Origin: Paracoccaceae bacterium
GTDB lineage: Bacteria > Pseudomonadota > Alphaproteobacteria > Rhodobacterales > Rhodobacteraceae
Reading direction: 5' to 3'
Length of the DNA: 64,000 nucleotides
Assembly: GCA_017510335.1 (NCBI GenBank)
Contig: JAFWNM010000033.1
Span: forward strand, 86,868-150,867
The translations under genes and the position numbers were made by a program. Below, piece by piece: positions 1 to 25,837 of this stretch; position 1 is the stretch's first letter, and every line of letters starts with the position of its first letter. Under the pieces are notes generated by a model. That model worked only from the letters and a program-made list of their open reading frames with translations. It searched no databases and was not told the DNA's origin.

Positions 1-420
1 AGCCTCGATCATGCCCAGAACCGTGCCCAGAAGGCCAATCAGCGGGGCGATCGTGGCAATCAGTTCCAGTGCGCGCAGCCCGCGCCGCGCCTGCATCAAC
101 GCCAGTTTGCCCACGCGCTGGGTTTCTTCGCGCGCGACCGCGTCGGACAGGTCGGCATCAAGGCGGGTTTCCATGGCACGGCGCGCAACCCGCGCGCGCA
201 GCCCGTTGCGGCGGGCCAGCCGCGCAACGGCGTCCTGCCTGCGGTTTTGCTGCCAGTCGCGCACCGCGGCATCGCATGGTGCGCGCGACCACGCCCCCAA
301 GCGCGCCAGATCCCAGAATTTCCACAGGATTAACGCCAGCGTCAGCACAGAAAGCGCCGCAATCACCCAAAGCGCGGGGCCGCCACGCATCAGAAACTCG
401 GAAATGCCCTGCGCCATCAC
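1..420 (-). CDS. exbB: MotA/TolQ/ExbB proton-channel protein (3' end runs off the window)
   Basis: Not in the ORF track. Manual translation from GTG420/ATG417 gives MAQGISEFLMRGGPALWVIAALS...LRALELIATIAPLIGLLGTVLGMIEA, containing the ExbB/TolQ 'APLxGLLGTVxGMI' motif. It lies directly downstream of btuD. Confidence 0.88.
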   Translation of the reverse strand, partial: MMAQGISEFLMRGGPALWVIAALSVLTLALILWKFWDLARLGAWSRAPCDAAVRDWQQNRRQDAVARLARRNGLRARVARRAMETRLDADLSDAVAREETQRVGKLALMQARRGLRALELIATIAPLIGLLGTVLGMIEA

Positions 421-445
421 GCCTGCCCCTTTTGCCACAATCCGT

Positions 446-1204
446 TCATTCCATCACATCCAGCGGCTGTATGATGGGACCATGGATACCATGGTCCACA
501 TAGGCGCGAATATGAAAAACCCGTGCCAGAACGTCTGGCGTCAAAACCTGCGCGGGGGGACCGTCTGCGACAACCTCGCCCTGGGACAACACCACCAGAC
601 GGGTGCAGAACCGCGCAGCCAGACCCAGATCATGCATCGACGCGATAACCGTGCGCCCTGCGCGGGCCTCGGCGGTCAGGGTTTGCATCAGCGCAATCTG
701 GTATGCAGGGTCCAGTCCGGCAGCAGGTTCATCGACCATCAATACCGGCGTCGCCTGCGCCAGGGCGCGCGCAATCAGAACCCGCGCCTGTTCGCCGCCC
801 GAAAGCTGCGTGGCAATGCGCCCGCGCAACCCCTGCAGGCGCATGCGTGCAATGGCGCTGTCGATCGCAGCCTGATCCAGCGGTCCCGGTTTCTGCCCCA
901 CCCCCAGATGCGGCAACCGGCCCAGCGCGACCAGCGTTTCCACCTTGACGGGCCAGGCAATTTCGCGCGCCTGCGGCAACCAGGCGACATGCTGCGCGCG
1001 CGCCGCAAGCGGCAGTGCCGCAATTGACGATTGCCCCTTGCTGGCCATAAGCCCCAAGGCACCGCGCAACAATGTTGTCTTGCCCGCGCCATTGGGGCCA
1101 AGCAGTCCGACACATTCCCCCGCCCCAACCTGCAGATTGATGTTGCGCAGCACATCGCAAGGGCCCCGGAAAACGCTGAAATTCTGCAAATGCAGCGCGG
1201 TCAT
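446..1204 (-). CDS. btuD: Cobalamin/iron-chelate ABC transporter ATP-binding protein
   Basis: Walker A GPNGAGKT, signature LSGGE, Walker B LMVDEP, H-loop SMHD. 4-nt overlap with the permease gene; the operon is under a B12 riboswitch. Confidence 0.9.
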   Translation of the reverse strand: MTALHLQNFSVFRGPCDVLRNINLQVGAGECVGLLGPNGAGKTTLLRGALGLMASKGQSSIAALPLAARAQHVAWLPQAREIAWPVKVETLVALGRLPHLGVGQKPGPLDQAAIDSAIARMRLQGLRGRIATQLSGGEQARVLIARALAQATPVLMVDEPAAGLDPAYQIALMQTLTAEARAGRTVIASMHDLGLAARFCTRLVVLSQGEVVADGPPAQVLTPDVLARVFHIRAYVDHGIHGPIIQPLDVME

Positions 1205-2187
1205 AAGCCTTGTGCCCTTGTCTTGTAGATAAGGTGCAGGAACAACGGTGCCCCCACAAGCGCGGTCAGCACACCCAACTTCAGGTCGCGTGTGGGCAAG
1301 ATGACCCGCACCGCAATATCGGCCATCAACACCAGAACCGCCCCCCCCAACGCCGAGGCAGGCAACAGCGCCGACGGGCGCGCCCCCACCAAGGGGCGCA
1401 ATATATGCGGCACCACCAACCCCACAAACCCGATGGCCCCCGCCACCGCTGTGGCCGCGCCCACCATGGACGCGACACCCAGAACCAGCATGACCCGCAC
1501 CCGCACCAGACTGACCCCCATGCTGGCGGCCGCATCCTCGCCCAGGGTCAGCGCGTCAAAACTGCGGCCAAGCGCCAGAAGAACAAGCGCCCCCGCCACA
1601 ATGAAGGGTGCAGCTAGGATCACATGGGTCATGGACCTGTCAGCAAGCGATCCCATCATCCAGAATACAATCTCGGATGCGGCAAAAGGGTTGGGCGACA
1701 GGTTCAACACCAGCGACGTCAACGCCCCTGCAAGCGCTGACACGGCAATTCCCGCCAGAATCAGCGTGATTGATCCCCCCCTTGGTCCGGCCAGCGCCAA
1801 AATCAGCAACACCGCCAGCACTGCCCCAGCAAGGGCAGCAAAGGGCAGCGCCAGAATATGCACCGCCGCCAGTCCGGTTTGCAACGCCAGCACAGCCCCC
1901 AGCGCCGCAGACCCCGACACGCCAATCAGGCCGGGTTCGGCCAGCGGGTTGCGCAAATAGCCCTGCATGGCTGCCCCCGCCAAACCCAGCGCCGCCCCCA
2001 CCAACACCGCCAGCATGGCGCGCGGCAGGCGAATTTCACGCATCACCAGGGTTTCGGCCAGCGCATCCCCACGCACCAGCGCTGTCAACGCCTGCAACGG
2101 GGGCAAACCCGCCGGCCCAACCAACAGGGACACAGCAAACAGCGCCATGACCATACCCACCAGACCTGCGCCCAGTCCCCGCGCCAT
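1201..2187 (-). CDS. btuC: FecCD/BtuC-family ABC permease
   Basis: Motifs IRLPR, RNPLAEPGLIGVS and GAIGFVGLVVPH; highly hydrophobic. Start placed at ATG2187 (MARGLGAG) behind a G-rich RBS. Confidence 0.9.
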   Translation of the reverse strand: MARGLGAGLVGMVMALFAVSLLVGPAGLPPLQALTALVRGDALAETLVMREIRLPRAMLAVLVGAALGLAGAAMQGYLRNPLAEPGLIGVSGSAALGAVLALQTGLAAVHILALPFAALAGAVLAVLLILALAGPRGGSITLILAGIAVSALAGALTSLVLNLSPNPFAASEIVFWMMGSLADRSMTHVILAAPFIVAGALVLLALGRSFDALTLGEDAAASMGVSLVRVRVMLVLGVASMVGAATAVAGAIGFVGLVVPHILRPLVGARPSALLPASALGGAVLVLMADIAVRVILPTRDLKLGVLTALVGAPLFLHLIYKTRAQGL

Positions 2188-2191
2188 AGCC

Positions 2192-3013
2192 CTACCCCCC
2201 CTCATGCAGTTGCGAAAGCTGCGCAATTGCCCGCAACACCGCAGGGGTGCCACAGACCCAATCCGCATCCGACAGCGCCTGCGCGGCATGCTGGTCGCGC
2301 AGCGCTGTCATGGCAGGGTGGGTCAGCACTTCTTCGGCGCGCGAGGCACCGGGATAGGGCTGGCCGGAAATGACCAGATCCGGCATCAGCATCACCAGAC
2401 GTTCCAATGCCAGATGCCCGCCACCAGAAATGCCTTCTTCCGCCGCGATATTGGCAAAACCCGCCGCATTCAGAATATCATGCGCAAGCGAATTCGCGCC
2501 GGTGGTGTAATTGTTGGCATAATGCAGCGCTGCGCGCGGTCGGGTGTCCCGCTGGGTGCGCAACTGCGCCAGACCGGCGCGAAACTCCGAAACCAGCGCG
2601 TTGGCGTTGTCCTGCTGGCCCAACAATAGGCCAACCTGCAAAATGGCATCCGGAATGGCATCAAGGGTGTTGACCACAGGCAAGGTCACCACGTTCACAC
2701 CAAGCTGGCGCAGCAGCGCAACCGTATATGGCGACGTGAACTGCCCTGCCAGCACCAGATCGGGGTTCAGGCGAAACACCTCCTCTGCCTGACCATGGTT
2801 AATGGGATAGGACAGCGCCTGTTCCAGCATCACCGACATGTTGGGATCATGCGATATGCGCGAAATCGACACAAGCTGGCCGGGGCCTGCCAGCATCATC
2901 GCCAGTTGGTCCGTGCACAGATTGATGGAGACCACCCGTTCAGGTGGTCCCGCAGCCGCAGCCCCTGCCCAAAGGGCAAGGGCTGCACCAATGACCCTAG
3001 AAGCGCGACGCAA
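2192..3013 (-). CDS. btuF: Periplasmic cobalamin-binding protein
   Basis: Signal-peptide-like N-terminus, then PERVVSINLCTDQL, EEVFRLNPDLV and LERLVMLMPDLVI. Start is uncertain (TTG3013 chosen; the frame is open to 3088). Confidence 0.85.
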   Translation of the reverse strand: MRRASRVIGAALALWAGAAAAGPPERVVSINLCTDQLAMMLAGPGQLVSISRISHDPNMSVMLEQALSYPINHGQAEEVFRLNPDLVLAGQFTSPYTVALLRQLGVNVVTLPVVNTLDAIPDAILQVGLLLGQQDNANALVSEFRAGLAQLRTQRDTRPRAALHYANNYTTGANSLAHDILNAAGFANIAAEEGISGGGHLALERLVMLMPDLVISGQPYPGASRAEEVLTHPAMTALRDQHAAQALSDADWVCGTPAVLRAIAQLSQLHEGG

Positions 3014-4874
3014 AGCCAAGGTAAAACGCCCTGTCAGATGTGCCGTAGCCTGCAACATGTTGGTATTGCGTGTTGAACAGGTTATCAATTTTACCTATCA
3101 GATCAACGCGATCCGTCATCTGATAGCGCAGGGACAGGTTTGCAACCGTGTAATCCGGCAGTGGTCCCGTTGTATAGTTGGGCAGGAAATCCAGCCTGTC
3201 GGCCACATGACGCACAGACACCCGCCCTTGCAGACGGTCCGACAACATCGCATCCAGCCCCAGTTGCAGATCATGCCGCGGCACCCGTGACCGGCGCCGC
3301 TGGTTTGCCAGAAACGCATCAGTGTAGGTATAATTTGCCGATAGGGTCAGTGTGTCCGAAACAGGCTGCTCGAATGAAAATTCAACACCGCGACTGCGCG
3401 CCTTGCCGGGGGCATTCACAACACTGTTGAACGACCCTGCAGCGCAGGCCATTGCGACAGGGTCATACACGCAATACACATCATCTATCAGGTTCTTGGT
3501 ATCAATCTGGAACAGCGTAAGCGACAACGCACCGCCATTCGCGAAGGACAGGTCCGCGCCAATCTCGTAATTCTGGCTACGCTCCACATCCAGTCCGGGG
3601 TTGCCCATGAACGGGAATGCCCCGCCTGTCATCCCGAAGCGCTGTTCCACAGACGGGGCGCGAAACCCCGACCCCAGCGACGCGCGCAAGGTCAATGCAT
3701 CACCAAGGCGGTAGGATGTTGCAACGCGCAAGGTTGGAATGCTGCCATAGTTCGAGTTTCTGTCCATCCTGCCAGAAAGCACGATGTCCAGATCACTGGT
3801 CGCCGCCCATTCCGACTGCGCGAATATGCCATAGCTGGTTGCCTTCGCACCCGCTGGAACAGTGCGCCCAAGGGCTGTTTCGCGCTGGACATCCACACCA
3901 TAGAGTAGGCGCAGCGTATCGGTCATGTCGGTTTGCCCATTCCACGCCAGCCTGTCGCGCCGTCCTGTAAACGAACCGGGCAAACTGTCGCGCAGCTCCC
4001 TCTCGACGGAATAATGCGTATATTCCAGCGTCTGGCGCGATCTGTCAGTGGCGTATTCGACAAACACCCGTCCGCCATATTCCTTGCGGTCCTGTTCATG
4101 GGGGGCATCGGCCAACCAGTCATCAAATTCCACAAATGAATCTTGCAAAAAGAATGACGCGCCTGCAGACCAGTTATTGTCAACCTGATAGCGTGCGGAA
4201 AAACTCAGGCGTGTTTGCTTGTGGCCGTCCGGTTCCGGTTGCCCATCGGCTGCGGAAAAACCGTCTGCGCGGCTGTGGGACAGGCTTAGCGCATAGTCCA
4301 GCGCGCCATGCCGCTGGCGCAACGAATACTGCCCGACCACCGTGCCAAAACTGCCCGCCAGCAGGGTTGCGGTTTGCTGGGTTCCATCGGTTTCCGGGCG
4401 AAGCGTGGTAATATTAACAACACCAGCCGCCGCCGAACCGCCATATAGCGCCGATTGCGCCCCGCGAAGCACTTCTATGCGCGACACATCGCCCAGTTGA
4501 AGCGCGCCAAAATCGACTGCGCCGGTGGATGACCCGGGGTCGTTGATCAACACACCATCCACATAGACAGAAACGAAGCGCGGCTCTATTCCCCGAATAC
4601 GGACATCGGTTGTCGTGCCGACCGGGCCAGTCTGCGTAATACTTACGCCAGCCAGCCCTGCCAGCAATTCCGACACAGATGTGGCGCCGGTGCGGTCAAT
4701 CTGTTGGCGGGTCAGGACACTGACGCTTGACCCGCTGCGCCCCAATTCCGTGGGCGTCAGGTTCGCAGAAAAGGTGATTTCTTCCAGATTTATGATTTGC
4801 TGGGCCGGGGCTGGCAGTCCGATGCTGCCAATCAGCGCAGTTGTGGCGAAAAGTCGCCAGAGAGTGTTTTGCAT
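2997..4874 (-). CDS. btuB: TonB-dependent cobalamin receptor
   Basis: Signal peptide, plug motifs (VYVDGVLIND, IEVLRGAQSALYG...GVVNI), C-terminal NLFNTQY...F. First gene after the cobalamin riboswitch. Confidence 0.9.
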   Translation of the reverse strand: MQNTLWRLFATTALIGSIGLPAPAQQIINLEEITFSANLTPTELGRSGSSVSVLTRQQIDRTGATSVSELLAGLAGVSITQTGPVGTTTDVRIRGIEPRFVSVYVDGVLINDPGSSTGAVDFGALQLGDVSRIEVLRGAQSALYGGSAAAGVVNITTLRPETDGTQQTATLLAGSFGTVVGQYSLRQRHGALDYALSLSHSRADGFSAADGQPEPDGHKQTRLSFSARYQVDNNWSAGASFFLQDSFVEFDDWLADAPHEQDRKEYGGRVFVEYATDRSRQTLEYTHYSVERELRDSLPGSFTGRRDRLAWNGQTDMTDTLRLLYGVDVQRETALGRTVPAGAKATSYGIFAQSEWAATSDLDIVLSGRMDRNSNYGSIPTLRVATSYRLGDALTLRASLGSGFRAPSVEQRFGMTGGAFPFMGNPGLDVERSQNYEIGADLSFANGGALSLTLFQIDTKNLIDDVYCVYDPVAMACAAGSFNSVVNAPGKARSRGVEFSFEQPVSDTLTLSANYTYTDAFLANQRRRSRVPRHDLQLGLDAMLSDRLQGRVSVRHVADRLDFLPNYTTGPLPDYTVANLSLRYQMTDRVDLIGKIDNLFNTQYQHVAGYGTSDRAFYLGFASRF

Positions 4875-8292: not shown

Positions 8293-8439
8293 CTGTTACG
8301 CCAGATGTATGGGCATCGGTCAAATGTGACAGGACATAGCCTTCAAATCGCCTTATTTCTGTCGCCAAACAGCGCCATAGACTGATACATATGACGATAA
8401 GGAAACAATTACGTTCCAATAGTGCGTTCGGTGGCAGGT

Positions 8440-9327
8440 ATGATTATGGTAAATACGCGAAAGCTGGAACAGCTTTTGAAGCGTTCGGATCGCACCAAAA
8501 CGACTGGCAAAGGCCAGCCGGAAACCACACCACTGCGTCGCGGGCTGGCACTTTCGGGCGGTCCTGCCCTGCGCAATGACCACCCCGCCAACACCCCTGA
8601 ACCCCTTGTCGTTCCCCTGAATGACGTCGCATGGGACCAGCTTGACGGCCTTACGCCTGATCCCGACATCGCCAAAGAACACCGCGCATTTAACCAGCAT
8701 GCGCGCACCCCCGCTGTGACAGCCCAGTTTGATGTGCTGCGCACCCAACTTGTGCAGACCTTTCGCAAACGGGGATTGCGTTGTCTGGGTATCACGTCGC
8801 CGCATTCCAATGCGGGCACCAGTTTTGTGGCGGCGGGGCTTCTGGCCAGTTTCGCGCGGCGCACCGATCTGCATGTCGTCGGGCTGGACCTGAATTTCGC
8901 CAATCCCGCGCTACATCGATACTTCGAAGCAGTGCCGGACGGTCCCATCCTTTCCGCGATAGAAGGCAGTATTCCCGTCGAATCGCATCTGCGGCGCGCC
9001 GGTCCCACACTGGCGCTGGGCCTGAACCAACCCGCGCCCGCGCCCGAACAAGGCAGCGCTGCCTTTCCCGCCGAAGATTTCGCAGACATGGTACAGGATA
9101 TTCTTGGCTTTCTCGGGCCGGATTTCGTGATTTGCGACATGCCCCCCCTGCTGGAAGGCGATTGCGCCCTGAACCTGCTGCCGGGAATAGATGCGGTTCT
9201 GGTTGTGTCCAACAGCCACACAACCAGTGCAGAAGACATTGCCGCATGTGAACGTGTTTTGCATGAACAGGCCGCGTTTCTTGGCGTTGTCATGAATCGC
9301 GCAGCCCCTGCACCAAAGGGGCGTTAA
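8440..9327 (+). CDS. CpsD/CapB-family (stand-alone Wzc C-terminal) tyrosine-kinase-like protein with degenerate P-loop
   Basis: FDVLRTQL...CLGITSPHSNAGTS (Walker A position), GLDLNFANP (A' position), FVICDMPPLL (Walker B), DAVLVV, FLGVVMN. Confidence 0.8.
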   Translation: MIMVNTRKLEQLLKRSDRTKTTGKGQPETTPLRRGLALSGGPALRNDHPANTPEPLVVPLNDVAWDQLDGLTPDPDIAKEHRAFNQHARTPAVTAQFDVLRTQLVQTFRKRGLRCLGITSPHSNAGTSFVAAGLLASFARRTDLHVVGLDLNFANPALHRYFEAVPDGPILSAIEGSIPVESHLRRAGPTLALGLNQPAPAPEQGSAAFPAEDFADMVQDILGFLGPDFVICDMPPLLEGDCALNLLPGIDAVLVVSNSHTTSAEDIAACERVLHEQAAFLGVVMNRAAPAPKGR

Positions 9328-18510: not shown

Positions 18511-19494
18511 ATGAACCCCACTGTCCTGACGATCATCGTTAACTACAAAAGCGCCGGAATGTCGCTGCAATCCGCGCAGGCCGCAAACCGTGCCATGACG
18601 GGCATTGACGGCGCAATTACGATTGTCGACAACGACAGCCAGGACGGCTCTTTTGAAACCCTGCGCGACGCCACGCGCGACATGCCACGGGTTCGGGTTA
18701 TCCAGTCGGGGCATAACGGTGGCTTCGGGTTTGGCAACAATGTTGCCATAAATGCGGGCCTGCCGGATGGACGTGCGCCGGATTTCGTCTATCTTCTCAA
18801 CCCCGATGCCTTCCCCGATGCTGATGCAATACAGGTGCTGCGCGACCATATGATCGCGCATCCGCAAACCGGCTTTGCGGGCAGTGCCGTGCGCGGCGAG
18901 GATGGCACCCCCCACGAGGTGGCGTTTCATTTCCCCTCTGCCTGGTCGGAATTCGAGACAGCGGCGAATACCGGCGTCATTACCAGATTGCTGCGCAACT
19001 ACCGCGTTCCCATGGGCTTTCCGCCGGCCACTTGCGCCGTGGACTGGTGTTCTGGTGCCAGTGTGATGTTCCGCCGCAGCATGCTGGACCAGATCGGCCT
19101 GTTTGACGAAACCTTTTTCCTGTATTTTGAAGAAACGGAATTGTGCCATCGTGCCCGCGCTGCAGGCTGGGCGGGCATGTATGTGCCCAAGGCCAGCGTT
19201 ATGCATATCGGTTCGGTTTCGACCGGCATGAGCAACAAGGCGCGCATACCGGGCTATTGGTTCAATTCGCGCGCGCATTATTATCGCAAGACAGGGGGCG
19301 CAGGGTATCTGGCAGTTGCAACGCTGTTTTATGTGCTAGGCGCATCCATCTGGAAAACACGCCGCCTGATTGAACGGAAAGAGGATCGGATTCCGCCATA
19401 TTTTCTCCGTGATCTTGTGGGACATACATTTCAGACCCTGATGCCGGGCACATTGATCAGGGGCAAACGGACGGGGGCGCAGGAAGCGCCCTGA
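18511..19494 (+). CDS. GT2-family glycosyltransferase (WbbL/rhamnosyltransferase-like)
   Basis: Motifs IIVNYKS, VDNDSQDG, NGGFGFGNN, LLNPDA, SGASVMFR, FFLYFEETELCHR and VMHIGSVS. Confidence 0.9.
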   Translation: MNPTVLTIIVNYKSAGMSLQSAQAANRAMTGIDGAITIVDNDSQDGSFETLRDATRDMPRVRVIQSGHNGGFGFGNNVAINAGLPDGRAPDFVYLLNPDAFPDADAIQVLRDHMIAHPQTGFAGSAVRGEDGTPHEVAFHFPSAWSEFETAANTGVITRLLRNYRVPMGFPPATCAVDWCSGASVMFRRSMLDQIGLFDETFFLYFEETELCHRARAAGWAGMYVPKASVMHIGSVSTGMSNKARIPGYWFNSRAHYYRKTGGAGYLAVATLFYVLGASIWKTRRLIERKEDRIPPYFLRDLVGHTFQTLMPGTLIRGKRTGAQEAP

Positions 19495-19507
19495 AAAGGG
19501 GTAATTT

Positions 19508-22500
19508 ATGCAGTTTTCAAGTGTTGTGATCGGCGATGAAAGCCTGCTGGCAGAATGCAGCAACCAGCTTTTGGCGCGTGGACACACCATTGCGGCTGTT
19601 GTCACCAACAACCCGCATCTGGCCAGCTGGGCACATGATAACAACCTGCCTGTCGTCAGCGCGGGCCGTGGTCTGGCAGACCGGCTGAATAGGCTGCATT
19701 TCGACTGGATTTTGAACATAGCCGGCCTGCGCGTGCTGCCGCCGGAAGTTCTGGCGCTGCCTGCCCGTGGGGCGGTCAATTTTCATGATGGCCCCTTGCC
19801 ACAGCATGCCGGGTTGAATGCACCCGTCTGGGCCTTGTTGGCAGGCGAACAACAGCACGGCATTTCATGGCATATGATCACCGAAACCATCGATCAGGGC
19901 GATATTCTGGCCCGCGCCGCTTTTGACATCACCGCTGATGACACTGCCTTGACGCTGAACGCAAAATGCTTTGCCGCCGGTGTCGAAAGTTTCGCAAATG
20001 TGCTGGACATGCTGGAACGCGGGCAGGTTTCCGGACAGCCCCAAGACATGACGGGGCGCAATGTGCATCTGCGCCATGACCGCCCCCTTCATGACGGTTT
20101 GCTGGATTTCACGCGCCCCGCCGCAGAACTGGAACGTGTGGTTCGCGCGCTGGATCATGGGCCATATTGGAACCCGCTATGCGCGGCCAAACTGCGGCTT
20201 GGCGCGCAACTTGCCTGTATTGGCGCCGCGCGGGTGGTTGACGGCCAAGGCGCGCCCGGACAGGTTCTTGATGTGGATTCCGACAGTCTGACCGTCATGT
20301 GCGCGGATATGGCGCTGCGCATGTCCGGACTGTTATGTGTGCAAGGGCTGCCCGTCAGCCCGGTGCAACATGTCACAACCGGCGACATGCTGCACATGCC
20401 CCCGAATGGCGTGACCGATGCGATGACGCGCATTGTGGCAGGCGAGCAGCGCTGGCGCGACGCCTTGCGCGCCATGGTGACGGTTCCCCGCCTTGCCGCA
20501 AAATCCGACAGGCGCGAAACACTGGCCCTGGATCTGGCCCTTGCACCGGACGCGCAAACCATTGCGGCATTCGGCGCGGCTGTCGCGCGCCAGTTCGGGT
20601 TGTCCGGCATCGACATGGCATGGCGCAATCGCGCCATTGCACAGGCACAGGCCGCCGCCCCCGACCATATTTCCGGCTGGGTGCCGGTGCAGGTGGACCT
20701 GCATGGCGCAAACCCCATCGCTGATGTTGAAACCCGCCTGAAGCTGGCCCAAACCGCGCCGGGCTTTGCCTGTGACATCAGCGCGCGCGATCCCATGCTT
20801 GGCCTGATCGAGATGCCGCATGTCGCCGTTACACACGGCGCCGAAGCACCGCAGGCGGCACTTGTGCTTGATCTGGACGCGGGCGCGTTGCGCTATGATC
20901 CCGAAATCCTGAGCGCGGCTGGCGCAAGCAAAATCAATACGCTGCTGGCAAACCCGCAGTCGATGGTCCTTGAACCGGACCAGCTTAACGCCACCACGCG
21001 TCCCTATGACCGCATTTGCATTCATCATGCGTTCGAAGCGCAGGTTCACAAAACGCCTGACGCCATTGCGCTGGCGTTTGAAAACCAGACCCTGACATAT
21101 GCGGACCTGAACGCCCGCGCCAACCGCGTGGCGCATGTGCTGAAGGGTATGGGCGTTGTCCCTGACACGCCAGTTGCGTTGTGCGCTGCACGCGGCCCGA
21201 ACCTGCTGATCGGCGCGCTTGGCATCCTGAAGGCGGGCGGGGCCTATGTGCCGCTGGACCCTGCCTACCCTGCGGACCGGCTGGCACATTACCTGAGTGA
21301 TTCCACCGCGCCAGTGGTCGTTACGGAACATGCCCTGCTGGACATGTTGCCCGACCATGATGCGGCGCTTTTGCAACTGGACACCGATGCGCGGCTTGCT
21401 GCGGCACCCGACACCACCCCTGACGGGACCACCACGCCCGACAATCTGGCGTATCTGATCTATACATCCGGGTCCACAGGCACACCCAAAGGGGTGATGG
21501 TGGAACATGGCAATGTCGCCAATTTCTTCGCCGGGATGGATGAGCGCATACGCCATGACCCGCCCGGCGTATGGCTGGCTGTCACATCGTTAAGTTTTGA
21601 CATTTCCGTGCTGGAACTGTTCTGGACATTGGCCCGCGGGTTCAAGGTTGTCCTGATGGGTGATGAGGACCGCACCGCTGTTTCGCGCGCGCCAGTGCGC
21701 GTGTCCGACAAACCCATGGATTTCAGCCTTATGTATTGGGGCAATGATGACGGGCAGGGGCCGCAGAAATACCGCCTGCTGCTGGAAGGCGCGAAATTTG
21801 CCGACACGCACGGGTTTTGCGCGGTCTGGACGCCGGAACGGCATTTTCACGCCTTTGGCGGCCCGTTCCCCAACCCGTCGGTTTCTGGCGCGGCAGTGGC
21901 GGCGGTTACGCAAAACCTGGCGGTGCGTGCAGGGTCTTGCGTGGCACCGCTGCATCATCCAGTGCGCATTGCCGAAGATTGGGCGATGATCGATAATTTG
22001 ACGAACGGGCGCACCGGCATTGGCATCGCTTCGGGCTGGCATCCGGTTGATTTTGTCCTTCGTCCCGAAAACCGCCCGCCCAACAACAAACAGGCGATGT
22101 TCGACATGATCGACACGCTGCGCAAACTATGGCGCGGGGATGCGGTCGAATTTGACAAGGGCGACGGGATGGTTCCCGTTCAGACCCTGCCGCGCCCCGT
22201 ATCGCGCGAATTGCCAATCTGGCTGACCACAGCAGGCAACCCCGACACTTGGCGTGACGCAGGACGGCTTGGCGCGAATGTGCTGACGCACCTGCTGGGC
22301 CAATCCATTGCCGAGGTGGCCGAGAAAATCACCATCTATCACGAAGCCCTGCGCGATGCGGGCCATGACCCCGCCGATTTTACCGTCACGCTGATGTTGC
22401 ACAGCTTCGTTGCGCGCGACCGCGACCATGCCCGCGAAGTGGCGCGCGGGCCGATGAAATCCTACCTGCTGGCGGCGGCGGCGCTGGTGAAACAATACGC

Positions 22501-24019
22501 ATGGGCCTTTCCAGCGTTCAAACGCCCCCAAGGGGCAAAGAACCCCATGGATATTGACCTGTCCGCCCTGTCCCAGGACGAAGTGGACGGCATTCTTGAT
22601 TTCGCCTTCAACCGCTATTTCGACGAATCCGGCCTGTTTGGCACGGTTGAGGATTGTCTGGACCGCGTGGAACAGCTCAAGGCGATTGGCGTGACGGAAA
22701 TTGCCTGCCTTATTGATTACGGCATCAACACCGATCAGGTTCTGGAAGGGCTGTTTCCGCTGGCCGAAGTGGTCAGGCGCGCGAATGCCGGGCTGGATCT
22801 GGCGCAGGATGATTTCTCGATCGCTGCGCAAATTCATCGCCACAAGGTCACGCATCTTCAATGCACCCCGTCCATGGCGCGCATGCTGGTCCTCAATGAC
22901 GACAGCCGCGCAGCACTGGCAAAGGTGGGGACTGTCCTGATCGGCGGTGAAGCCCTGCCCGGGGCCTTGGCGCGCGACATTGCGCAGCTTACCGGCCAGC
23001 CTGTGCATAACATGTATGGTCCCACCGAAACCACCATATGGTCAACAACCCTGACCACCACAGGCACAGACGGTATTGCGGGAATAGGCACGCCCATCGC
23101 GAATACTCAGGTTCATGTCCTCGACGACGCGCTGCGCCCTGTGCCCCCCCATCAGGACGGGGAATTGTTCATTGGCGGCGACGGGGTGACGCGGGGCTAC
23201 TGGAACCGCGCGGCACTGACAGAAGAACGGTTTATCCCCAACCCATTCGGGGCGGGGCGGCTGTATCGCACAGGCGATCTGGTGCAACGGGGGCATGACG
23301 GGTTGCGGTTCATGGGGCGTGTGGATCATCAGGTCAAAATCCGCGGCCACCGCATCGAACTGGGCGAGATTGAAACCGCCCTGGAAGCGCAGCCGGGCAT
23401 TACCGCCGCTGTTGCCATCGCCCGCGAAGACCGGGACGGCGACATAAGGCTGGTCGCCTATTACACCGGCAGCCCGTCGGGGGATGTGCGCGCCGCGCTG
23501 GCACAGCGCCTGCCTGCACATATGTTGCCCGCGCATTTTATCCCGCTGGCAAAAATGCCGCTGACGCCCAACAAGAAGATCGACCGCAAGGCCCTTCCGG
23601 CACCCACCAGCGCGCCACAACACATGCCAGCACCTGTCGCCAGCGCACCTGCAGGCACAGACACCGCCAGCAAGATCGCGGCCATATGGTGCGATGTGCT
23701 GGGCGTGGCGCAAGTGGGCCAGACGGATAATTTCTTCCATCTGGGGGGGCATTCGCTGCTGGCAGTGCAGGCCCACCGCGAAATGCGCACGCTATTGAAC
23801 ATTCCGGGCCTGTCCATCACAGATTTGTTCCGTTTCCCCGTTCTGGGGGAACTTGCCCGTCATCTGGATGGCAAACTGCGCCCGCTTTCGCCTGTGCAAA
23901 CACCACAAATTCACGCCATCGACAGCGCCCCCCTTGCCCCCGACACACCCCCATCAGACAGGGTTCAGGCCATGGCACGCCGCCGCGCCATGCGCGCAGA
24001 AAGGGCCGGACGCGCATGA
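19508..24019 (+). CDS. NRPS-like starter module: formyltransferase - degenerate C lobe - adenylation domain (Gly code) interrupted by luciferase-like monooxygenase - PCP
   Basis: F domain: NFHDGPLP...IDQGDI. A3 YTSGSTGTPKG; A4 FDIS; LLM insert with WTPERHFH and IASGWHPVDF; A5 NMYGPTE; A7 YRTGD; A8 KIRGHRIELGEIE; A10 NKKIDR. PCP: LGGHSL (Ser 23753). Confidence 0.95.
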   Translation: MQFSSVVIGDESLLAECSNQLLARGHTIAAVVTNNPHLASWAHDNNLPVVSAGRGLADRLNRLHFDWILNIAGLRVLPPEVLALPARGAVNFHDGPLPQHAGLNAPVWALLAGEQQHGISWHMITETIDQGDILARAAFDITADDTALTLNAKCFAAGVESFANVLDMLERGQVSGQPQDMTGRNVHLRHDRPLHDGLLDFTRPAAELERVVRALDHGPYWNPLCAAKLRLGAQLACIGAARVVDGQGAPGQVLDVDSDSLTVMCADMALRMSGLLCVQGLPVSPVQHVTTGDMLHMPPNGVTDAMTRIVAGEQRWRDALRAMVTVPRLAAKSDRRETLALDLALAPDAQTIAAFGAAVARQFGLSGIDMAWRNRAIAQAQAAAPDHISGWVPVQVDLHGANPIADVETRLKLAQTAPGFACDISARDPMLGLIEMPHVAVTHGAEAPQAALVLDLDAGALRYDPEILSAAGASKINTLLANPQSMVLEPDQLNATTRPYDRICIHHAFEAQVHKTPDAIALAFENQTLTYADLNARANRVAHVLKGMGVVPDTPVALCAARGPNLLIGALGILKAGGAYVPLDPAYPADRLAHYLSDSTAPVVVTEHALLDMLPDHDAALLQLDTDARLAAAPDTTPDGTTTPDNLAYLIYTSGSTGTPKGVMVEHGNVANFFAGMDERIRHDPPGVWLAVTSLSFDISVLELFWTLARGFKVVLMGDEDRTAVSRAPVRVSDKPMDFSLMYWGNDDGQGPQKYRLLLEGAKFADTHGFCAVWTPERHFHAFGGPFPNPSVSGAAVAAVTQNLAVRAGSCVAPLHHPVRIAEDWAMIDNLTNGRTGIGIASGWHPVDFVLRPENRPPNNKQAMFDMIDTLRKLWRGDAVEFDKGDGMVPVQTLPRPVSRELPIWLTTAGNPDTWRDAGRLGANVLTHLLGQSIAEVAEKITIYHEALRDAGHDPADFTVTLMLHSFVARDRDHAREVARGPMKSYLLAAAALVKQYAWAFPAFKRPQGAKNPMDIDLSALSQDEVDGILDFAFNRYFDESGLFGTVEDCLDRVEQLKAIGVTEIACLIDYGINTDQVLEGLFPLAEVVRRANAGLDLAQDDFSIAAQIHRHKVTHLQCTPSMARMLVLNDDSRAALAKVGTVLIGGEALPGALARDIAQLTGQPVHNMYGPTETTIWSTTLTTTGTDGIAGIGTPIANTQVHVLDDALRPVPPHQDGELFIGGDGVTRGYWNRAALTEERFIPNPFGAGRLYRTGDLVQRGHDGLRFMGRVDHQVKIRGHRIELGEIETALEAQPGITAAVAIAREDRDGDIRLVAYYTGSPSGDVRAALAQRLPAHMLPAHFIPLAKMPLTPNKKIDRKALPAPTSAPQHMPAPVASAPAGTDTASKIAAIWCDVLGVAQVGQTDNFFHLGGHSLLAVQAHREMRTLLNIPGLSITDLFRFPVLGELARHLDGKLRPLSPVQTPQIHAIDSAPLAPDTPPSDRVQAMARRRAMRAERAGRA

Positions 24020-24696
24020 TTCAACAACGCTTTTCACTGGTGCAATACGCGCGCCCCTTGTTCAGCGACAGGGTTGCCATGGCATGGGCCGACCCGAAAG
24101 CCCCCATGCCCCGCCTTATGGGCGACGAGGTTCTGGCCATTGAACAGGTCGCTGCCGCGCGCGCGCGCGAATTCGCCGCCGGACGCGCTGCCGCGCGCAG
24201 CGCCATGGAACAACTGGGCCATACGCCGCGCCCCGTCCTGCAAGGGGATGACCGCGCGCCAATCTGGCCTTCGGGCATTGTCGGGTCCATCACGCACACG
24301 GGCCAGGACGCGCTGGCCGTTGTCACGGATGACCCCGCCATTATGGCGTTGGGGCTGGACATGGAACCCGCCACACCGCTGGAACCAAGCCTGTGGCCAG
24401 TGGTTTGCACACAAAACGACATGCTTTGGCTGGCTGGCCTTGGCCCTACGCAGCGCGGACATTTCGCCAAGCTGCTGTTTTCCGCGAAAGAAGCGGTCTA
24501 TAAGGCACAGTATCAGGTCAGCCGCTGCCTGATCGATTTTCATGCGCTTGATCTGATACCTGATCTGGCTTCAGGCCGCTTTACCGGGACATTGCGGCAA
24601 GACGTTCCGCATTTTGCATCTGGAACCCGATTCGAAGGACAGTTTTCGATTCTCGCCAGTTCCATTGTCACAGCGGTGGAAATATACCGTCGCTGA
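24016..24696 (+). CDS. 4'-phosphopantetheinyl transferase (EntD-type)
   Basis: Motifs APIWPSGIVGSITH, LGLDME and FSAKEAVYKA; ATGA overlap with the NRPS gene. Confidence 0.93.
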   Translation: MIQQRFSLVQYARPLFSDRVAMAWADPKAPMPRLMGDEVLAIEQVAAARAREFAAGRAAARSAMEQLGHTPRPVLQGDDRAPIWPSGIVGSITHTGQDALAVVTDDPAIMALGLDMEPATPLEPSLWPVVCTQNDMLWLAGLGPTQRGHFAKLLFSAKEAVYKAQYQVSRCLIDFHALDLIPDLASGRFTGTLRQDVPHFASGTRFEGQFSILASSIVTAVEIYRR

Positions 24697-24956
24697 ACGC
24701 AGGTCTGCTGCAATAGGCGCAGTTTTTCAAAGCGGGCTATTCTATGGATAGTGGCTAACCCGACCCGCTTCCCCAACATTCTGCAAGCCGCCGCGACAAG
24801 CTGACCATGCCTTCAAAATCATTGGCAAAACCCGCCTTCAATCTGATACACTTGCGCCAGCAACCCTAACCAGAGGCAGTGTGCTGTCAGTTCCCAAAGC
24901 TACTGATCATCAGAATCGACGACAGCATTCCAGTATCAGAAAGAATCGAGGGCAGA

Positions 24957-25274
24957 ATGAACAAAACCCTGATTGCCGCCATCCTTTCGGCATTCGTTAT
25001 CCCTGCAATACCCACATCCGCAGCCGCCAGCGCAATTGAATCCGCATGCTTGCGGTCGGACAGGGCGCAAGCCACCCGCGCGTTGTGCCGTTGCATCGGA
25101 TCTGTGGCGAATGAAACGCTGACCCGCAGCGAGCAACGCCGCGCCGCCGCATTTTTCCGCGACCCACAGCTTGCGCAGGATGTGCGCATGTCCAAAAGTG
25201 ACCGCGATAATGCATTCTGGGCGCGTTACCGCGCCTTCGGGGACCGTGCCGAACAATTTTGCGCAGGGCGCTGA
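24957..25274 (+). CDS. Small secreted hypothetical protein with four cysteines
   Basis: Signal peptide MNKTLIAAILSAFVIPAIPTSAAA; mature part contains SAC, LCRC and QFC; GAGG RBS before ATG24957. Confidence 0.75.
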   Translation: MNKTLIAAILSAFVIPAIPTSAAASAIESACLRSDRAQATRALCRCIGSVANETLTRSEQRRAAAFFRDPQLAQDVRMSKSDRDNAFWARYRAFGDRAEQFCAGR

Positions 25275-25309
25275 TCTGCTTTTGGCGCCCCTCATCAGAA
25301 ATGCCTGAC

Positions 25310-25350
25310 AAGTCTAGACCCCGAACCATGTTCGGGGTCTAGACTTTTTT
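25310..25350. terminator. Long perfect hairpin between convergent genes (terminator)
   Basis: 17-bp stem AAGTCTAGACCCCGAAC-CAT-GTTCGGGGTCTAGACTT followed by a T run; abuts the PCu(A)C stop codon. Confidence 0.85.
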
Positions 25351-25837
25351 AGTTGTGGCTATGCGTATGTCCGTGACTGTGGTTGTGGCCGCCACCGTGG
25401 TCTGTGGTGCGTTCCAGATCAACAGGAATCACAATTGCAAGCTCATCGCCGTTTTCAAGCACCAGCGTCACCGCCACGTCATCACCATGGCTTAGGGACT
25501 GGTTCAGACCCAGAAACATGACATGGTCGCCGCCACGTTCCAGCGCGTGCATGCTTTGGGCGGGCACGGTAATCCCGCCTTCCAGTTCGACCATGCGCAT
25601 AACGCCGTTGTCATCTTCCAGATGGGTGTGCAATTCGACACGTTGCGCCACATCGGACCGCGCGCCGATGATGCGGCACTCCGTCGCGGAATTGTTCATA
25701 ATATGCATGAACGCCGCACCGGATTGCGACATTGCAGTGGATGTGCGCGCATAGGCATCATGCACTTCCAGATCGCAGGCCAATGCGGGCAGGGCGAACG
25801 TGACTGCCGCAGCAGTCGTCAAAAGTATTTTCTCCAT
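25349..25837 (-). CDS. Periplasmic copper chaperone PCu(A)C with His-rich tail
   Basis: Signal peptide; ELHTH...GVMRM...GGDHVM copper motif; tail DHGGGHNHSHGHTHSHN. Confidence 0.92.
   Translation of the reverse strand: MEKILLTTAAAVTFALPALACDLEVHDAYARTSTAMSQSGAAFMHIMNNSATECRIIGARSDVAQRVELHTHLEDDNGVMRMVELEGGITVPAQSMHALERGGDHVMFLGLNQSLSHGDDVAVTLVLENGDELAIVIPVDLERTTDHGGGHNHSHGHTHSHN

What the first reader, a model, noticed from the sequence alone, without database searches (positions are those of the whole stretch)
21000..23600. Glycine-specific adenylation domain interrupted between A4 and A5 by a complete luciferase-like monooxygenase
An LLM domain of about 355 aa (about 21716-22785) is spliced in right after A4 (FDIS at 21596), and the A domain resumes at THLQCTPS. 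Reading the ten specificity positions across the insertion gives D-I-L-Q-L-G-M-I-W-K, the established glycine code. In myxothiazol MtaG and melithiazol MelG, a monooxygenase inserted at the same A4-A5 position oxidises the C-alpha of PCP-bound glycine to give a terminal amide. Here it sits in a starter module behind a formyltransferase, so the chemistry must differ: alpha-hydroxy-N-formylglycyl, or oxidation of a later intermediate. No flavin reductase is encoded in the operon.
Basis: partly seen in the sequence, partly recalled or inferred. Interest (0 to 1): 0.8.

Follow-up and report, generated by a model that had tools for sequence, protein, structure and literature searches.

The report
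Formyl-glycine loading enzyme with built-in oxygenase
The gene really does encode a glycine-loading peptide-synthetase module with a formyltransferase in front and a flavin monooxygenase spliced into its adenylation domain, but it is an ordinary copy of a gene found in about a third of Rhodobacterales genera, part of a PKS/NRPS cluster known since 2007 whose product is still unknown.

Summary
Observation confirmed at the stated coordinates. ORF 19508-24019 (+, 1503 aa) reads F - A(N-part) - LLM - A(C-part) - PCP. The LLM (aa 739-1088, nt 21722-22771) scores 473 bits on TIGR04020 (cut-off 244). It lies between A4 (FDIS, nt 21596) and A5 (NMYGPTE). The code reads DILQLGMIWK, and two solved A domains that I recall as glycine-activating (5u89, 4zxh) share the same pocket pattern.

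It is not a rare architecture. At least 597 species genomes encode the same roughly 1500-aa protein, and 100 of 301 sampled genera of the same family have it. The PKS-GT2-NRPS-PPTase order is conserved. This is the orphan "Roseobacter" NRPS/PKS/glycosyltransferase/PPTase cluster attributed to Martens et al. 2007. No product is reported in the literature I could search, up to 2026.

The LLM is the best-conserved part of the protein, so it is almost certainly active. Its closest solved relative is the PuwE LLM (6KET). All nine other A4/A5-embedded LLMs I found also sit in glycine-coded A domains. That points to C-alpha hydroxylation of PCP-bound (N-formyl)glycine. This step is inferred, and the fate of the carbinolamide is unknown.

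Interest is moderate to low.

The parts
19508..24019 (+). Whole gene: F - A(Gly)[LLM] - PCP single-module NRPS, 1503 aa
19508..20323 (+). Formyltransferase domain (aa 1-272). It has FMT/ArnA-like N- and C-subdomains and the triad N91/H93/D129.
   Evidence: Pfam. The nearest PDB matches are FMT 5uai (E 4.6e-22) and ArnA 8gjh (E 5.6e-21); the LgrA F domain scores only about 1e-9. The triad is about 95% conserved in 77 orthologs.
20408..20992 (+). Poorly conserved region of about 195 aa between F and A (aa 301-495), with no family assignment
   Evidence: No Pfam hit. Mean identity to orthologs is 24%.
20993..21721 (+). Adenylation domain, N-terminal piece (aa 496-738), motifs A1-A4. A3 (LAYLIYTSGSTGTPKG) is at nt 21446 and A4 (FDIS) at nt 21596.
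21722..22771 (+). Inserted luciferase-like FMN-dependent monooxygenase domain (aa 739-1088)
   Evidence: TIGR04020 at 473 bits. PDB 6ket (PuwE) matches at E 7e-105 over the whole domain. It is the most conserved part of the protein.
22772..23602 (+). Adenylation domain, remainder (aa 1089-1365): THLQCTPS at 22850, A5 NMYGPTE at 23009, A7 YRTGD, A8 GRVDHQVKIRG, A10 NKKIDR at 23570
23672..23872 (+). PCP domain (aa 1389-1455). The Ppant serine is S1416 in GGHSL (nt 23753-23755).
   Evidence: Pfam PP-binding. GGHSL is 99% conserved.
12130..18504 (+). Partner type I PKS, KS-AT-KR-DH-CP-TE, 2124 aa from the first TTG. The likely start is the ATG at 12160.
   Evidence: Pfam. Active-site motifs TACSTS, HGTGT, KTNIGH, GHSMG, GGFGGIG and GFSGGG are intact.
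18511..19494 (+). Family-2 glycosyltransferase between the PKS and the NRPS
   Evidence: the position is conserved in relatives
24016..24696 (+). Sfp/EntD-type 4'-phosphopantetheinyl transferase, overlapping the NRPS stop by 4 nt
8422..12120 (+). Three co-directional upstream genes: a BY-kinase-like protein (8422-9327), a Wzz/PCP-type chain-length determinant-like protein (9330-10616) and a Wzy_C/O-antigen-ligase-like membrane protein (10636-12120)
   Evidence: Family hits are weak. Homologues lie within 10 kb of the cluster in most Rhodobacterales loci.

Best explanation
This is the loading module of the conserved Rhodobacterales ('Roseobacter-type') PKS/NRPS/glycosyltransferase/PPTase cluster.

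Shown from sequence: the A domain has a glycine-type pocket with the alpha-amino-binding Asp and the carboxylate-binding Lys intact. The PCP has its serine. The N-terminal FMT/ArnA-like domain keeps the Asn-His-Asp formyl-transfer triad. A complete TIGR04020 luciferase-like monooxygenase sits in the A4-A5 loop and is under the strongest purifying selection in the protein.

Inferred mechanism:
1. The co-encoded PPTase primes S1416.
2. The A domain loads glycine.
3. The F domain N-formylates glycyl-S-PCP with N10-formyl-THF, as in LgrA, CongA and OzmO.
4. The LLM uses FMNH2 from one of the cell's free flavin reductases, plus O2, to hydroxylate C-alpha of the tethered N-formylglycyl thioester. 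This is the chemistry proposed for the MOx domain of MtaG/MelG and for other assembly-line LLMs of this family.
5. The KS of the upstream-encoded PKS takes this starter. One malonyl extension with KR and DH follows, and the TE releases or transfers the product.
6. The product is probably glycosylated or joined to a glycan by the co-transcribed GT2 and the Wzy/Wzz-like proteins.

I favour retention of the N-formyl carbinolamide, possibly trapped as an N,O-acetal, over its collapse. The reason is that the formyltransferase triad is conserved and would be pointless if only glyoxylyl-S-PCP were wanted.
For: - Domain calls.
- Glycine pocket: in the pocket region the best PDB matches are 5u89 (by my recollection the DhbF A1 domain) and 4zxh (AB3403). 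Read at the same ten positions they give DILQLGLIWK and DILQLGVVWK.
- 77 orthologs all read DILQ[M/L/F/Y]GM[I/V]WK.
- The LLM is the most conserved domain: 73% mean identity, and 38% of columns are at least 97% conserved. The A domain is at 61-62% and the F domain at 48%.
- The LLM matches the PuwE LLM structure 6ket at E 7e-105.
- TIGR04020 members in PKS/NRPS lines are proposed alpha-hydroxylases of tethered intermediates (PMC8739492). The MtaG/MelG MOX is proposed to hydroxylate glycine C-alpha (PMC11411415).
- In all 9 other proteins found with an LLM in the A4-A5 loop, the host A domain also has a glycine-type code, whatever the module position. This ties the LLM to the glycine loaded by its own A domain.
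- F triad: N91/H93/D129 aligns with the FMT and ArnA catalytic residues and is about 95% conserved.
- F-A(Gly)-PCP starters feeding a KS are documented for conglobatin and oxazolomycin (PMC4504003).
- Starter logic: there is no C domain, and the PKS starts with a catalytically intact KS and ends with a TE.
- Operon: seven co-directional genes with gaps of no more than 39 nt. PKS-GT2-NRPS-PPTase synteny holds in nearly all Rhodobacterales loci.
- Flavin reductases are present elsewhere in the genome.
Against: - No biochemical data exist for any member of this family. The product is unknown in all the literature I could search.
- Specificity codes predict but do not prove the substrate.
- The order of formylation and hydroxylation is unknown, and so is the stability of the carbinolamide.
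- The closest solved LLM (PuwE) comes, by my recollection, from a pathway where the hydroxylated carbon belongs to a fatty-acyl or polyketide unit and not to glycine. The LLM could therefore act on the ACP-bound extended chain instead.
- The F domain is closer to FMT and ArnA than to the LgrA F domain, so an amino-sugar substrate is not strictly excluded.
- The PKS could act iteratively.
- Rhizobiales copies lack the GT2. The one Rhizobiales locus examined, Aureimonas (L064), has a GT4 and a GMC oxidoreductase instead.
Confidence: 0.55

Rival explanations
1. MtaG-type collapse. The LLM hydroxylates N-formylglycyl-S-PCP, and the carbinolamide fragments to formamide plus glyoxylyl-S-PCP. The true PKS starter is then a glyoxylyl unit, which after one extension with KR and DH would give a 4-oxo-2-butenoate-type product.
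For: This is the chemistry proposed for MtaG/MelG: hydroxylation, then dealkylation to the amide plus the alpha-keto acid (PMC11411415). The insertion site and the glycine code are the same.
Against: A free alpha-hydroxyglycyl thioester would lose ammonia on its own, so a conserved formyltransferase would not be needed. In the sample of 9 embedded LLMs from other NRPSs, six or seven sit in internal C-A(LLM)-PCP-C modules, where chain cleavage is not the obvious purpose.
Confidence: 0.15
2. The LLM does not act on glycine. It alpha-hydroxylates, or performs a Baeyer-Villiger-type oxidation on, the extended intermediate bound to the PKS carrier domain. This would resemble stand-alone or PKS-embedded TIGR04020 members such as PuwE, MupA, OnnC and CalD.
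For: The closest solved structure is the PuwE LLM. The family is used on polyketide intermediates in several pathways (PMC8739492).
Against: A4/A5-embedded LLMs were found only in glycine-coded A domains, 9 of 9, and in all 77 orthologs. That coupling is hard to explain if the substrate is unrelated to the residue loaded by the host A domain. The LLM is also fused next to its own PCP and not to the PKS.
Confidence: 0.12
3. The A domain loads something other than glycine, for example another small alpha-amino acid. The predicted starter would then be wrong.
For: Codes are predictive only. Position 299 varies among orthologs (M, L, F or Y).
Against: D698 (the alpha-amino contact) and K1357 are invariant. 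The pocket pattern D-I-L-Q-x-G-x-(I/V)-W-K is shared with 5u89 and 4zxh, which I recall as glycine-activating domains. Bulky residues at positions 299, 322 and 331 leave little room for a side chain.
Confidence: 0.07
4. The LLM is a catalytically dead structural insert.
For: None is specific.
Against: It is the most conserved domain of the protein across Rhodobacterales, Rhizobiales, Myxococcota and Planctomycetota: 134 of 350 columns are at least 97% conserved, and motifs such as WTPERHF, LTHLLGQ and CLIDYG are invariant.
Confidence: 0.03

Closest known systems
Conserved Roseobacter-clade NRPS/PKS/glycosyltransferase/PPTase cluster (Martens et al. 2007, as cited in PMC4337385 and PMC4062626; called the 'NRPS-like/T1PKS hybrid' of Roseibaca in PMC10584327)
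   Same: It has the same four genes in the same order, PKS-GT2-NRPS-PPTase. The proteins are 50-93% identical to copies in Roseinatronobacter, Roseibaca, Leisingera, Phaeobacter, Shimia, Sulfitobacter and others. The NRPS architecture is the same.
   Different: Nothing essential differs. Here the polysaccharide-type genes (BY-kinase-like, Wzz-like, Wzy-like) lie directly upstream in the same operon, whereas in many relatives they lie downstream or on the other strand.
MtaG / MelG terminal modules of myxothiazol and melithiazol synthetases (C-A-MOX-A-T-TE)
   Same: A monooxygenase is embedded in a glycine-activating A domain, and hydroxylation of the tethered glycine C-alpha is proposed (PMC11411415). 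An MtaG-like C-A(LLM)-PCP-TE terminal module with the same A4/A5 insertion site was seen in representative P0199.
   Different: Here the module is an initiating one. It has a formyltransferase in place of a C domain and no TE of its own, so the N-acyl group is formyl and not a long chain. The F-type units form their own clade, separate from the C-type units.
Formylating starter modules F-A-PCP: LgrA (linear gramicidin), CongA (conglobatin) and OzmO (oxazolomycin)
   Same: An N-terminal formyltransferase is fused to A-PCP. In CongA and OzmO the amino acid is glycine and the next enzyme is a PKS KS (PMC4504003).
   Different: Those A domains have no LLM. The F domain here has the two-subdomain FMT/ArnA layout plus an extra region of about 195 aa, and it is only distantly similar to the LgrA F domain. 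No OzmP/CongE-type cyclodehydratase is present among the seven operon genes.
PuwE luciferase-like monooxygenase (PDB 6KET) and other TIGR04020 assembly-line LLMs (MupA, OnnC, CalD)
   Same: The LLM belongs to the same subfamily: E 7e-105 to 6ket over the full domain, and TIGR04020 at 473 bits.
   Different: Those are stand-alone proteins or sit in PKS modules. Here the LLM is spliced into an A-domain loop.

Membership tests
Roseobacter-type NRPS/PKS/GT/PPTase orphan cluster | Four adjacent genes: NRPS, type I PKS, glycosyltransferase and PPTase | tested here: met
   Pfam on the neighbouring ORFs. The order is PKS 12130-18504, GT2 18511-19494, NRPS 19508-24019, PPTase 24016-24696.
Roseobacter-type NRPS/PKS/GT/PPTase orphan cluster | Orthology and synteny with the copies in named Roseobacter-group genomes | tested here: met
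   80 loci were fetched. tblastn with the window's proteins finds PKS-GT2-NRPS-PPTase in the same order in nearly all Rhodobacterales loci, including Leisingera, Phaeobacter, Shimia and Sulfitobacter. The window's protein nests inside the Rhodobacterales clade.
TIGR04020 (MupA/Atu3671 family FMN-dependent LLM) | Score above the curated cut-off over the whole model | tested here: met
   473.2 bits against a cut-off of 244.45, model positions 1-340 of 341.
MtaG/MelG-type MOx-interrupted glycine module | Monooxygenase inserted in the A domain between A4 and A5 | tested here: met
   FDIS at aa 697, LLM at 739-1088, NMYGPTE at 1168. Colinear alignment with uninterrupted A domains. That MtaG's own site is A4/A5 is recalled, not tested: the paper read says only that the A domain is split by MOX.
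MtaG/MelG-type MOx-interrupted glycine module | Glycine-specific A domain | tested here: met
   The code is DILQLGMIWK. The same pattern occurs in 5u89 and 4zxh. This is a prediction only, with no assay.
MtaG/MelG-type MOx-interrupted glycine module | Terminating module: a C domain upstream and a TE directly after the PCP | tested here: not met
   No condensation or thioesterase domain is found in the 1503-aa protein. A formyltransferase is at the N-terminus, and the protein ends 48 aa after the PCP.
MtaG/MelG-type MOx-interrupted glycine module | Product carries a terminal amide, with glyoxylate released | not testable with these tools
   This needs chemistry.
Formylating NRPS starter modules (LgrA/CongA/OzmO type) | N-terminal formyltransferase domain with an intact Asn-His-Asp triad, fused to A-PCP | tested here: met
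   Pfam Formyl_trans_N and Formyl_trans_C. N91/H93/D129 align with the FMT and ArnA catalytic residues and are about 95% conserved. An extra spacer of about 195 aa has no precedent in LgrA.
Formylating NRPS starter modules (LgrA/CongA/OzmO type) | For the oxazole-forming CongA/OzmO subtype: a CongE/OzmP-like ATP-dependent cyclodehydratase in the cluster | tested here: not met
   None of the seven operon proteins gives such a family hit.

The most novel reading that the evidence does not exclude
The cluster does not make a diffusible antibiotic or siderophore. It makes a small N-formyl-alpha-hydroxyglycine-derived enoyl unit whose LLM-installed hydroxyl is glycosylated, forming an N,O-acetal. 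That unit, or the glycoside, serves as a primer, cap or anchor of a Wzy/Wzz-dependent surface polysaccharide. This would be a new class of PKS/NRPS-made glycoconjugate present in about a third of Rhodobacterales genera.
Probability: 0.15. Interest if true: 0.75.

Novelty: new member of a known kind. Interest (0 to 1): 0.33.

Why it matters
The cluster is one of the most widespread biosynthetic loci in the marine Roseobacter group and its relatives. About one genus in three has it here, and earlier work counted 28 of 57 genomes. It has been an orphan for nearly twenty years. Its loading module combines three activities on one tethered glycine, which makes it a compact and testable system for on-line alpha-hydroxylation of an aminoacyl thioester. 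Knowing the product would clarify a conserved trait, probably linked to the cell surface, of ecologically dominant bacteria. This particular copy adds nothing new beyond another ortholog, apart from a neat operon arrangement with polysaccharide-assembly-like genes.

Tried and rejected
1. Literature search for a characterised product. Ten full-text searches found only statements that the product is unknown. Martens et al. 2007 itself is not held. One search was wasted on prefix matches ('PuwE' matched 'Puwen...').

2. Whole-library HMMER search with the A(LLM) unit. The ranking was dominated by giant multimodular NRPSs through summed scores. Only 10 of the 150 listed representatives contain an LLM, so the census of architectures is small.

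3. The idea that the missing flavin reductase is significant was rejected. Three PF01613 genes lie elsewhere in the genome.

4. The idea that the F domain marks an oxazole-forming CongA/OzmO-type starter was rejected as membership, because no cyclodehydratase is in the operon.

5. Promoter and terminator scans at the operon ends gave nothing above the shuffled expectation upstream. Downstream, the only notable hit is a strong hairpin at 25310-25346.

7. I did not run a structure prediction. Sequence matches to solved structures were already unambiguous, and interdomain geometry from a model would not settle the chemistry.

Full report
**Observation.** The window carries a 1503-aa ORF at 19508-24019 on the + strand.

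- Pfam finds Formyl_trans_N (aa 54-164), Formyl_trans_C (196-272), and an AMP-binding domain in two pieces. The first piece is aa 509-723 (profile positions 1-243). NCBIfam A-domain models place the second from about aa 1100.
- Pfam also finds Bac_luciferase (748-1063, E 2.5e-49), AMP-binding_C (1287-1357) and PP-binding (1389-1453).
- NCBIfam places the insert in TIGR04020, the MupA/Atu3671 family of FMN-dependent luciferase-like monooxygenases. The match is aa 739-1088 at 473 bits against a cut-off of 244.
- FDIS begins at nt 21596 exactly as reported, THLQCTPS at 22850 and NMYGPTE at 23009.
- When the LLM is cut out, the two A-domain pieces align colinearly with both A domains of LgrA. The insertion falls in the loop between 'FKVVLMGDEDR' and the helix 'IAAQIHRHKVTHLQ', that is, between core motifs A4 and A5.

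**Specificity.** I read the ten Stachelhaus positions from the motif anchors: FD-I-S-V-L-E, HL-Q-CTPS, V-L-I-G-GEA, N-M-YGPTETT-I-W and NK-K-ID. They give DILQLGMIWK.

- When only the pocket region is searched against the PDB, the best matches are 5u89 and 4zxh.
- By my own knowledge, 5u89 is the DhbF A1-PCP-C2 fragment and 4zxh is AB3403, and both activate glycine.
- At the same positions they read DILQLGLIWK and DILQLGVVWK.
- In 77 orthologs from fetched loci the code is DILQ[M/L/F/Y]GM[I/V]WK without exception.
- The alpha-amino-binding Asp and the carboxylate-binding Lys are invariant.

Glycine is therefore a well-founded prediction, but not a measurement.

**How common it is.**
The best 120 are almost all proteins of about 1500 aa with the same Pfam set, 67-99% identical, from Roseinatronobacter, Roseibaca, Natronohydrobacter, Pararhodobacter, Rhodobacter and others.
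Most are Rhodobacterales. Others are Aureimonas, Devosia, Agrobacterium, Rhizobium, Bosea, Hyphomicrobium, betaproteobacterial MAGs, a Sandaracinaceae MAG and a Phycisphaeraceae MAG.
- Within the window's own taxonomic family, 100 of 301 genomes have a TIGR04020 match over the cut-off. The sample holds essentially one genome per genus. Nearly all matches lie in open frames of about 1500 aa.
- tblastn with the window's neighbouring proteins shows the order PKS-GT2-NRPS-PPTase in nearly all Rhodobacterales loci. The Wzy-like, Wzz-like and kinase-like genes lie within 10 kb in most.
- In Rhizobiales the PKS is divergent and the GT2 is absent. In Aureimonas, a GT4 glycosyltransferase and a GMC oxidoreductase flank the PKS instead.

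**Literature.**
- Collins et al. [quoted passage not shown] - The Phaeobacter inhibens T5 genome paper confirms the genes (PMC4062626).
- A 2023 study of Roseibaca domitiana, whose protein is 82% identical to this one, lists the 'NRPS-like/T1PKS hybrid' in 18 of 37 related species with no known product (PMC10584327).
- Later searches up to 2026 found no product.
- Martens et al. 2007 itself is not in the library, so I cannot say how fully it described the domain architecture.
- Earlier follow-up agents of this scan reached the same identification on other genomes. I list these as agreeing, not as independent evidence.

**Is the LLM functional, and on what does it act?**
- Across 77 orthologs the LLM is the most conserved part of the protein: 73% mean identity to the window copy, and 134 of 350 columns are at least 97% conserved. 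The A-domain pieces are at 61-62%, the F domain at 48% and the F-A spacer at 24%. A dead insert is very unlikely.
- The closest solved structure is the 362-aa PuwE LLM (6KET, E 7e-105 over the whole domain).
- TIGR04020 members in assembly lines are proposed alpha-hydroxylases or Baeyer-Villiger-type oxidases of carrier-bound intermediates (PMC8739492).
- For MtaG/MelG the embedded MOX is proposed to hydroxylate the glycine alpha-carbon. The carbinolamide then breaks down to the terminal amide and the alpha-keto acid (PMC11411415).
- In a whole-library HMMER search, ten of the 150 top representatives contain the LLM. In nine it sits in the same A4-A5 loop, and all nine host A domains have glycine-type codes.
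- Their module contexts differ. Six or seven are internal C-A(LLM)-PCP-C modules, one is an MtaG-like C-A(LLM)-PCP-TE, and one ends after the PCP.
- The tenth, P0232, has the LLM at another site.

This constant coupling to glycine, across varying contexts, is the best available argument that the LLM acts on the glycine loaded by its own A domain. It also shows that terminal-amide formation is only one use of the cassette.

A maximum-likelihood tree of the A(LLM) units puts all F-type units in one clade (SH-aLRT 100), apart from the C-type units. Myxococcota and Planctomycetota members are basal, followed by a Rhizobiales clade and a Rhodobacterales clade. The F-A(LLM)-PCP architecture therefore arose once.

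**The formyltransferase.** Its nearest solved relatives are Met-tRNA formyltransferase (5uai, E 4.6e-22) and the ArnA N-terminal domain (8gjh, E 5.6e-21). The match covers both subdomains. The LgrA F domain matches only at about 1e-9. N91 and H93 (NFHDGPLP) and D129 (IDQG) align with the catalytic Asn, His and Asp, and are about 95% conserved; the exceptions are mostly truncated sequences. F-A(Gly)-PCP starters that hand N-formylglycine to a KS are documented for conglobatin and oxazolomycin (PMC4504003). No CongE/OzmP-like cyclodehydratase is present here.

**Context and assembly logic.**
- Seven co-directional genes run from 8422 to 24696, with gaps of no more than 39 nt and one 4-nt overlap.
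- In order they are: a BY-kinase-like protein, a Wzz/PCP-like chain-length determinant and a Wzy_C-like membrane protein (all weak hits); then the PKS, the GT2, the NRPS and an Sfp/EntD-type PPTase.
- The NRPS has no C or TE domain.
- The PKS begins with a KS with intact Cys-His-His (TACSTS, HGTGT, KTNIGH). It has AT (GHSMG), KR (GGFGGIG), a DH placed after the KR, a carrier domain with a PCP-like LGGHSL motif, and a TE (GFSGGG).
- No flavin reductase is in the window, but three PF01613 genes are elsewhere in the genome, so FMNH2 supply in trans is unproblematic.

**Mechanism, with status of each step.**
- Shown from sequence: domain identities, insertion site, intact catalytic and binding motifs, glycine-type pocket, strong constraint on the LLM, operon and synteny.
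- Inferred: glycine loading; N-formylation on the PCP; FMNH2/O2-dependent C-alpha hydroxylation of the tethered N-formylglycyl thioester; transfer to the KS; one malonyl extension with ketoreduction and dehydration; TE release; glycosylation or attachment to a glycan.

I favour retention of the carbinolamide, possibly trapped as an N,O-acetal. A conserved formyltransferase would be superfluous if only glyoxylyl-S-PCP were wanted. The MtaG-like collapse (formamide plus glyoxylyl starter) and action on the PKS-bound chain remain live rivals.

**Comparison and novelty.** The gene is a member of the known orphan Roseobacter-type cluster and of TIGR04020. It works like, but is not a member of, the MtaG/MelG terminating modules, because it has no C domain and no TE. 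It also resembles, without matching, the oxazole-forming F-A-PCP starters, because it has no cyclodehydratase and carries an extra LLM. This copy is a new member of a known kind.

The open question is what the cluster makes. That question is real and worth pursuing, but it is not raised for the first time by this window.

**Limits.** The architecture census rests on only ten LLM-containing representatives.

Noticed in passing
window 15600-17300 (PKS aa ~1160-1700): The PKS has its dehydratase after the ketoreductase (KS-AT-KR-DH-CP-TE). Its carrier domain has a PCP-type LGGHSL motif in place of the usual ACP GxDS. The DH His motif is spaced HxxxxGxxxxP, where the usual form is HxxxGxxxxP.
   Followed up: partly
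window 20408-20992 (NRPS aa 301-495): About 195 aa between the formyltransferase and the A domain have no family hit. They are the least conserved part of the protein (24% mean identity to orthologs). LgrA has no such spacer.
   Followed up: partly
protein P0232 (4180 aa, from the representative search), aa 3494-3830: In this unrelated multimodular NRPS, the same kind of LLM is inserted at a different point of the A domain. It lies after the GGEA strand and directly before NMYGPTE, and the stretch carrying position 278 lies upstream of the insert. This is a second, independent insertion site.
   Followed up: no
locus L064 (Aureimonas altamirensis) 98-3028: In this Rhizobiales copy of the cluster the GT2 is missing. 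A GT4 glycosyltransferase and a GMC-family oxidoreductase flank the divergently transcribed PKS.
   Followed up: partly
genomes G161, G166 and G286 of the family sample: These genomes each show two separate full-length TIGR04020 matches (in frames of about 1500 aa in G161 and G166; one copy in G286 lies in a short 380-aa frame). Some species therefore appear to carry two copies of the cluster.
   Followed up: no
window 25310-25346 (+): A perfect 17-bp stem-loop followed by TTTTAGTTGT lies about 600 nt downstream of the PPTase stop. It could be a terminator or a palindromic element. Five terminator-like sites were found in 24500-25500, against 1.1 expected.
   Followed up: no
window 8422-9327: The first gene of the operon gives only weak matches, far below the cut-offs, to polysaccharide tyrosine autokinases (TIGR03018, TIGR01007). 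Another first-reader note suggests it is a pseudokinase. I did not check the Walker motifs.
   Followed up: no
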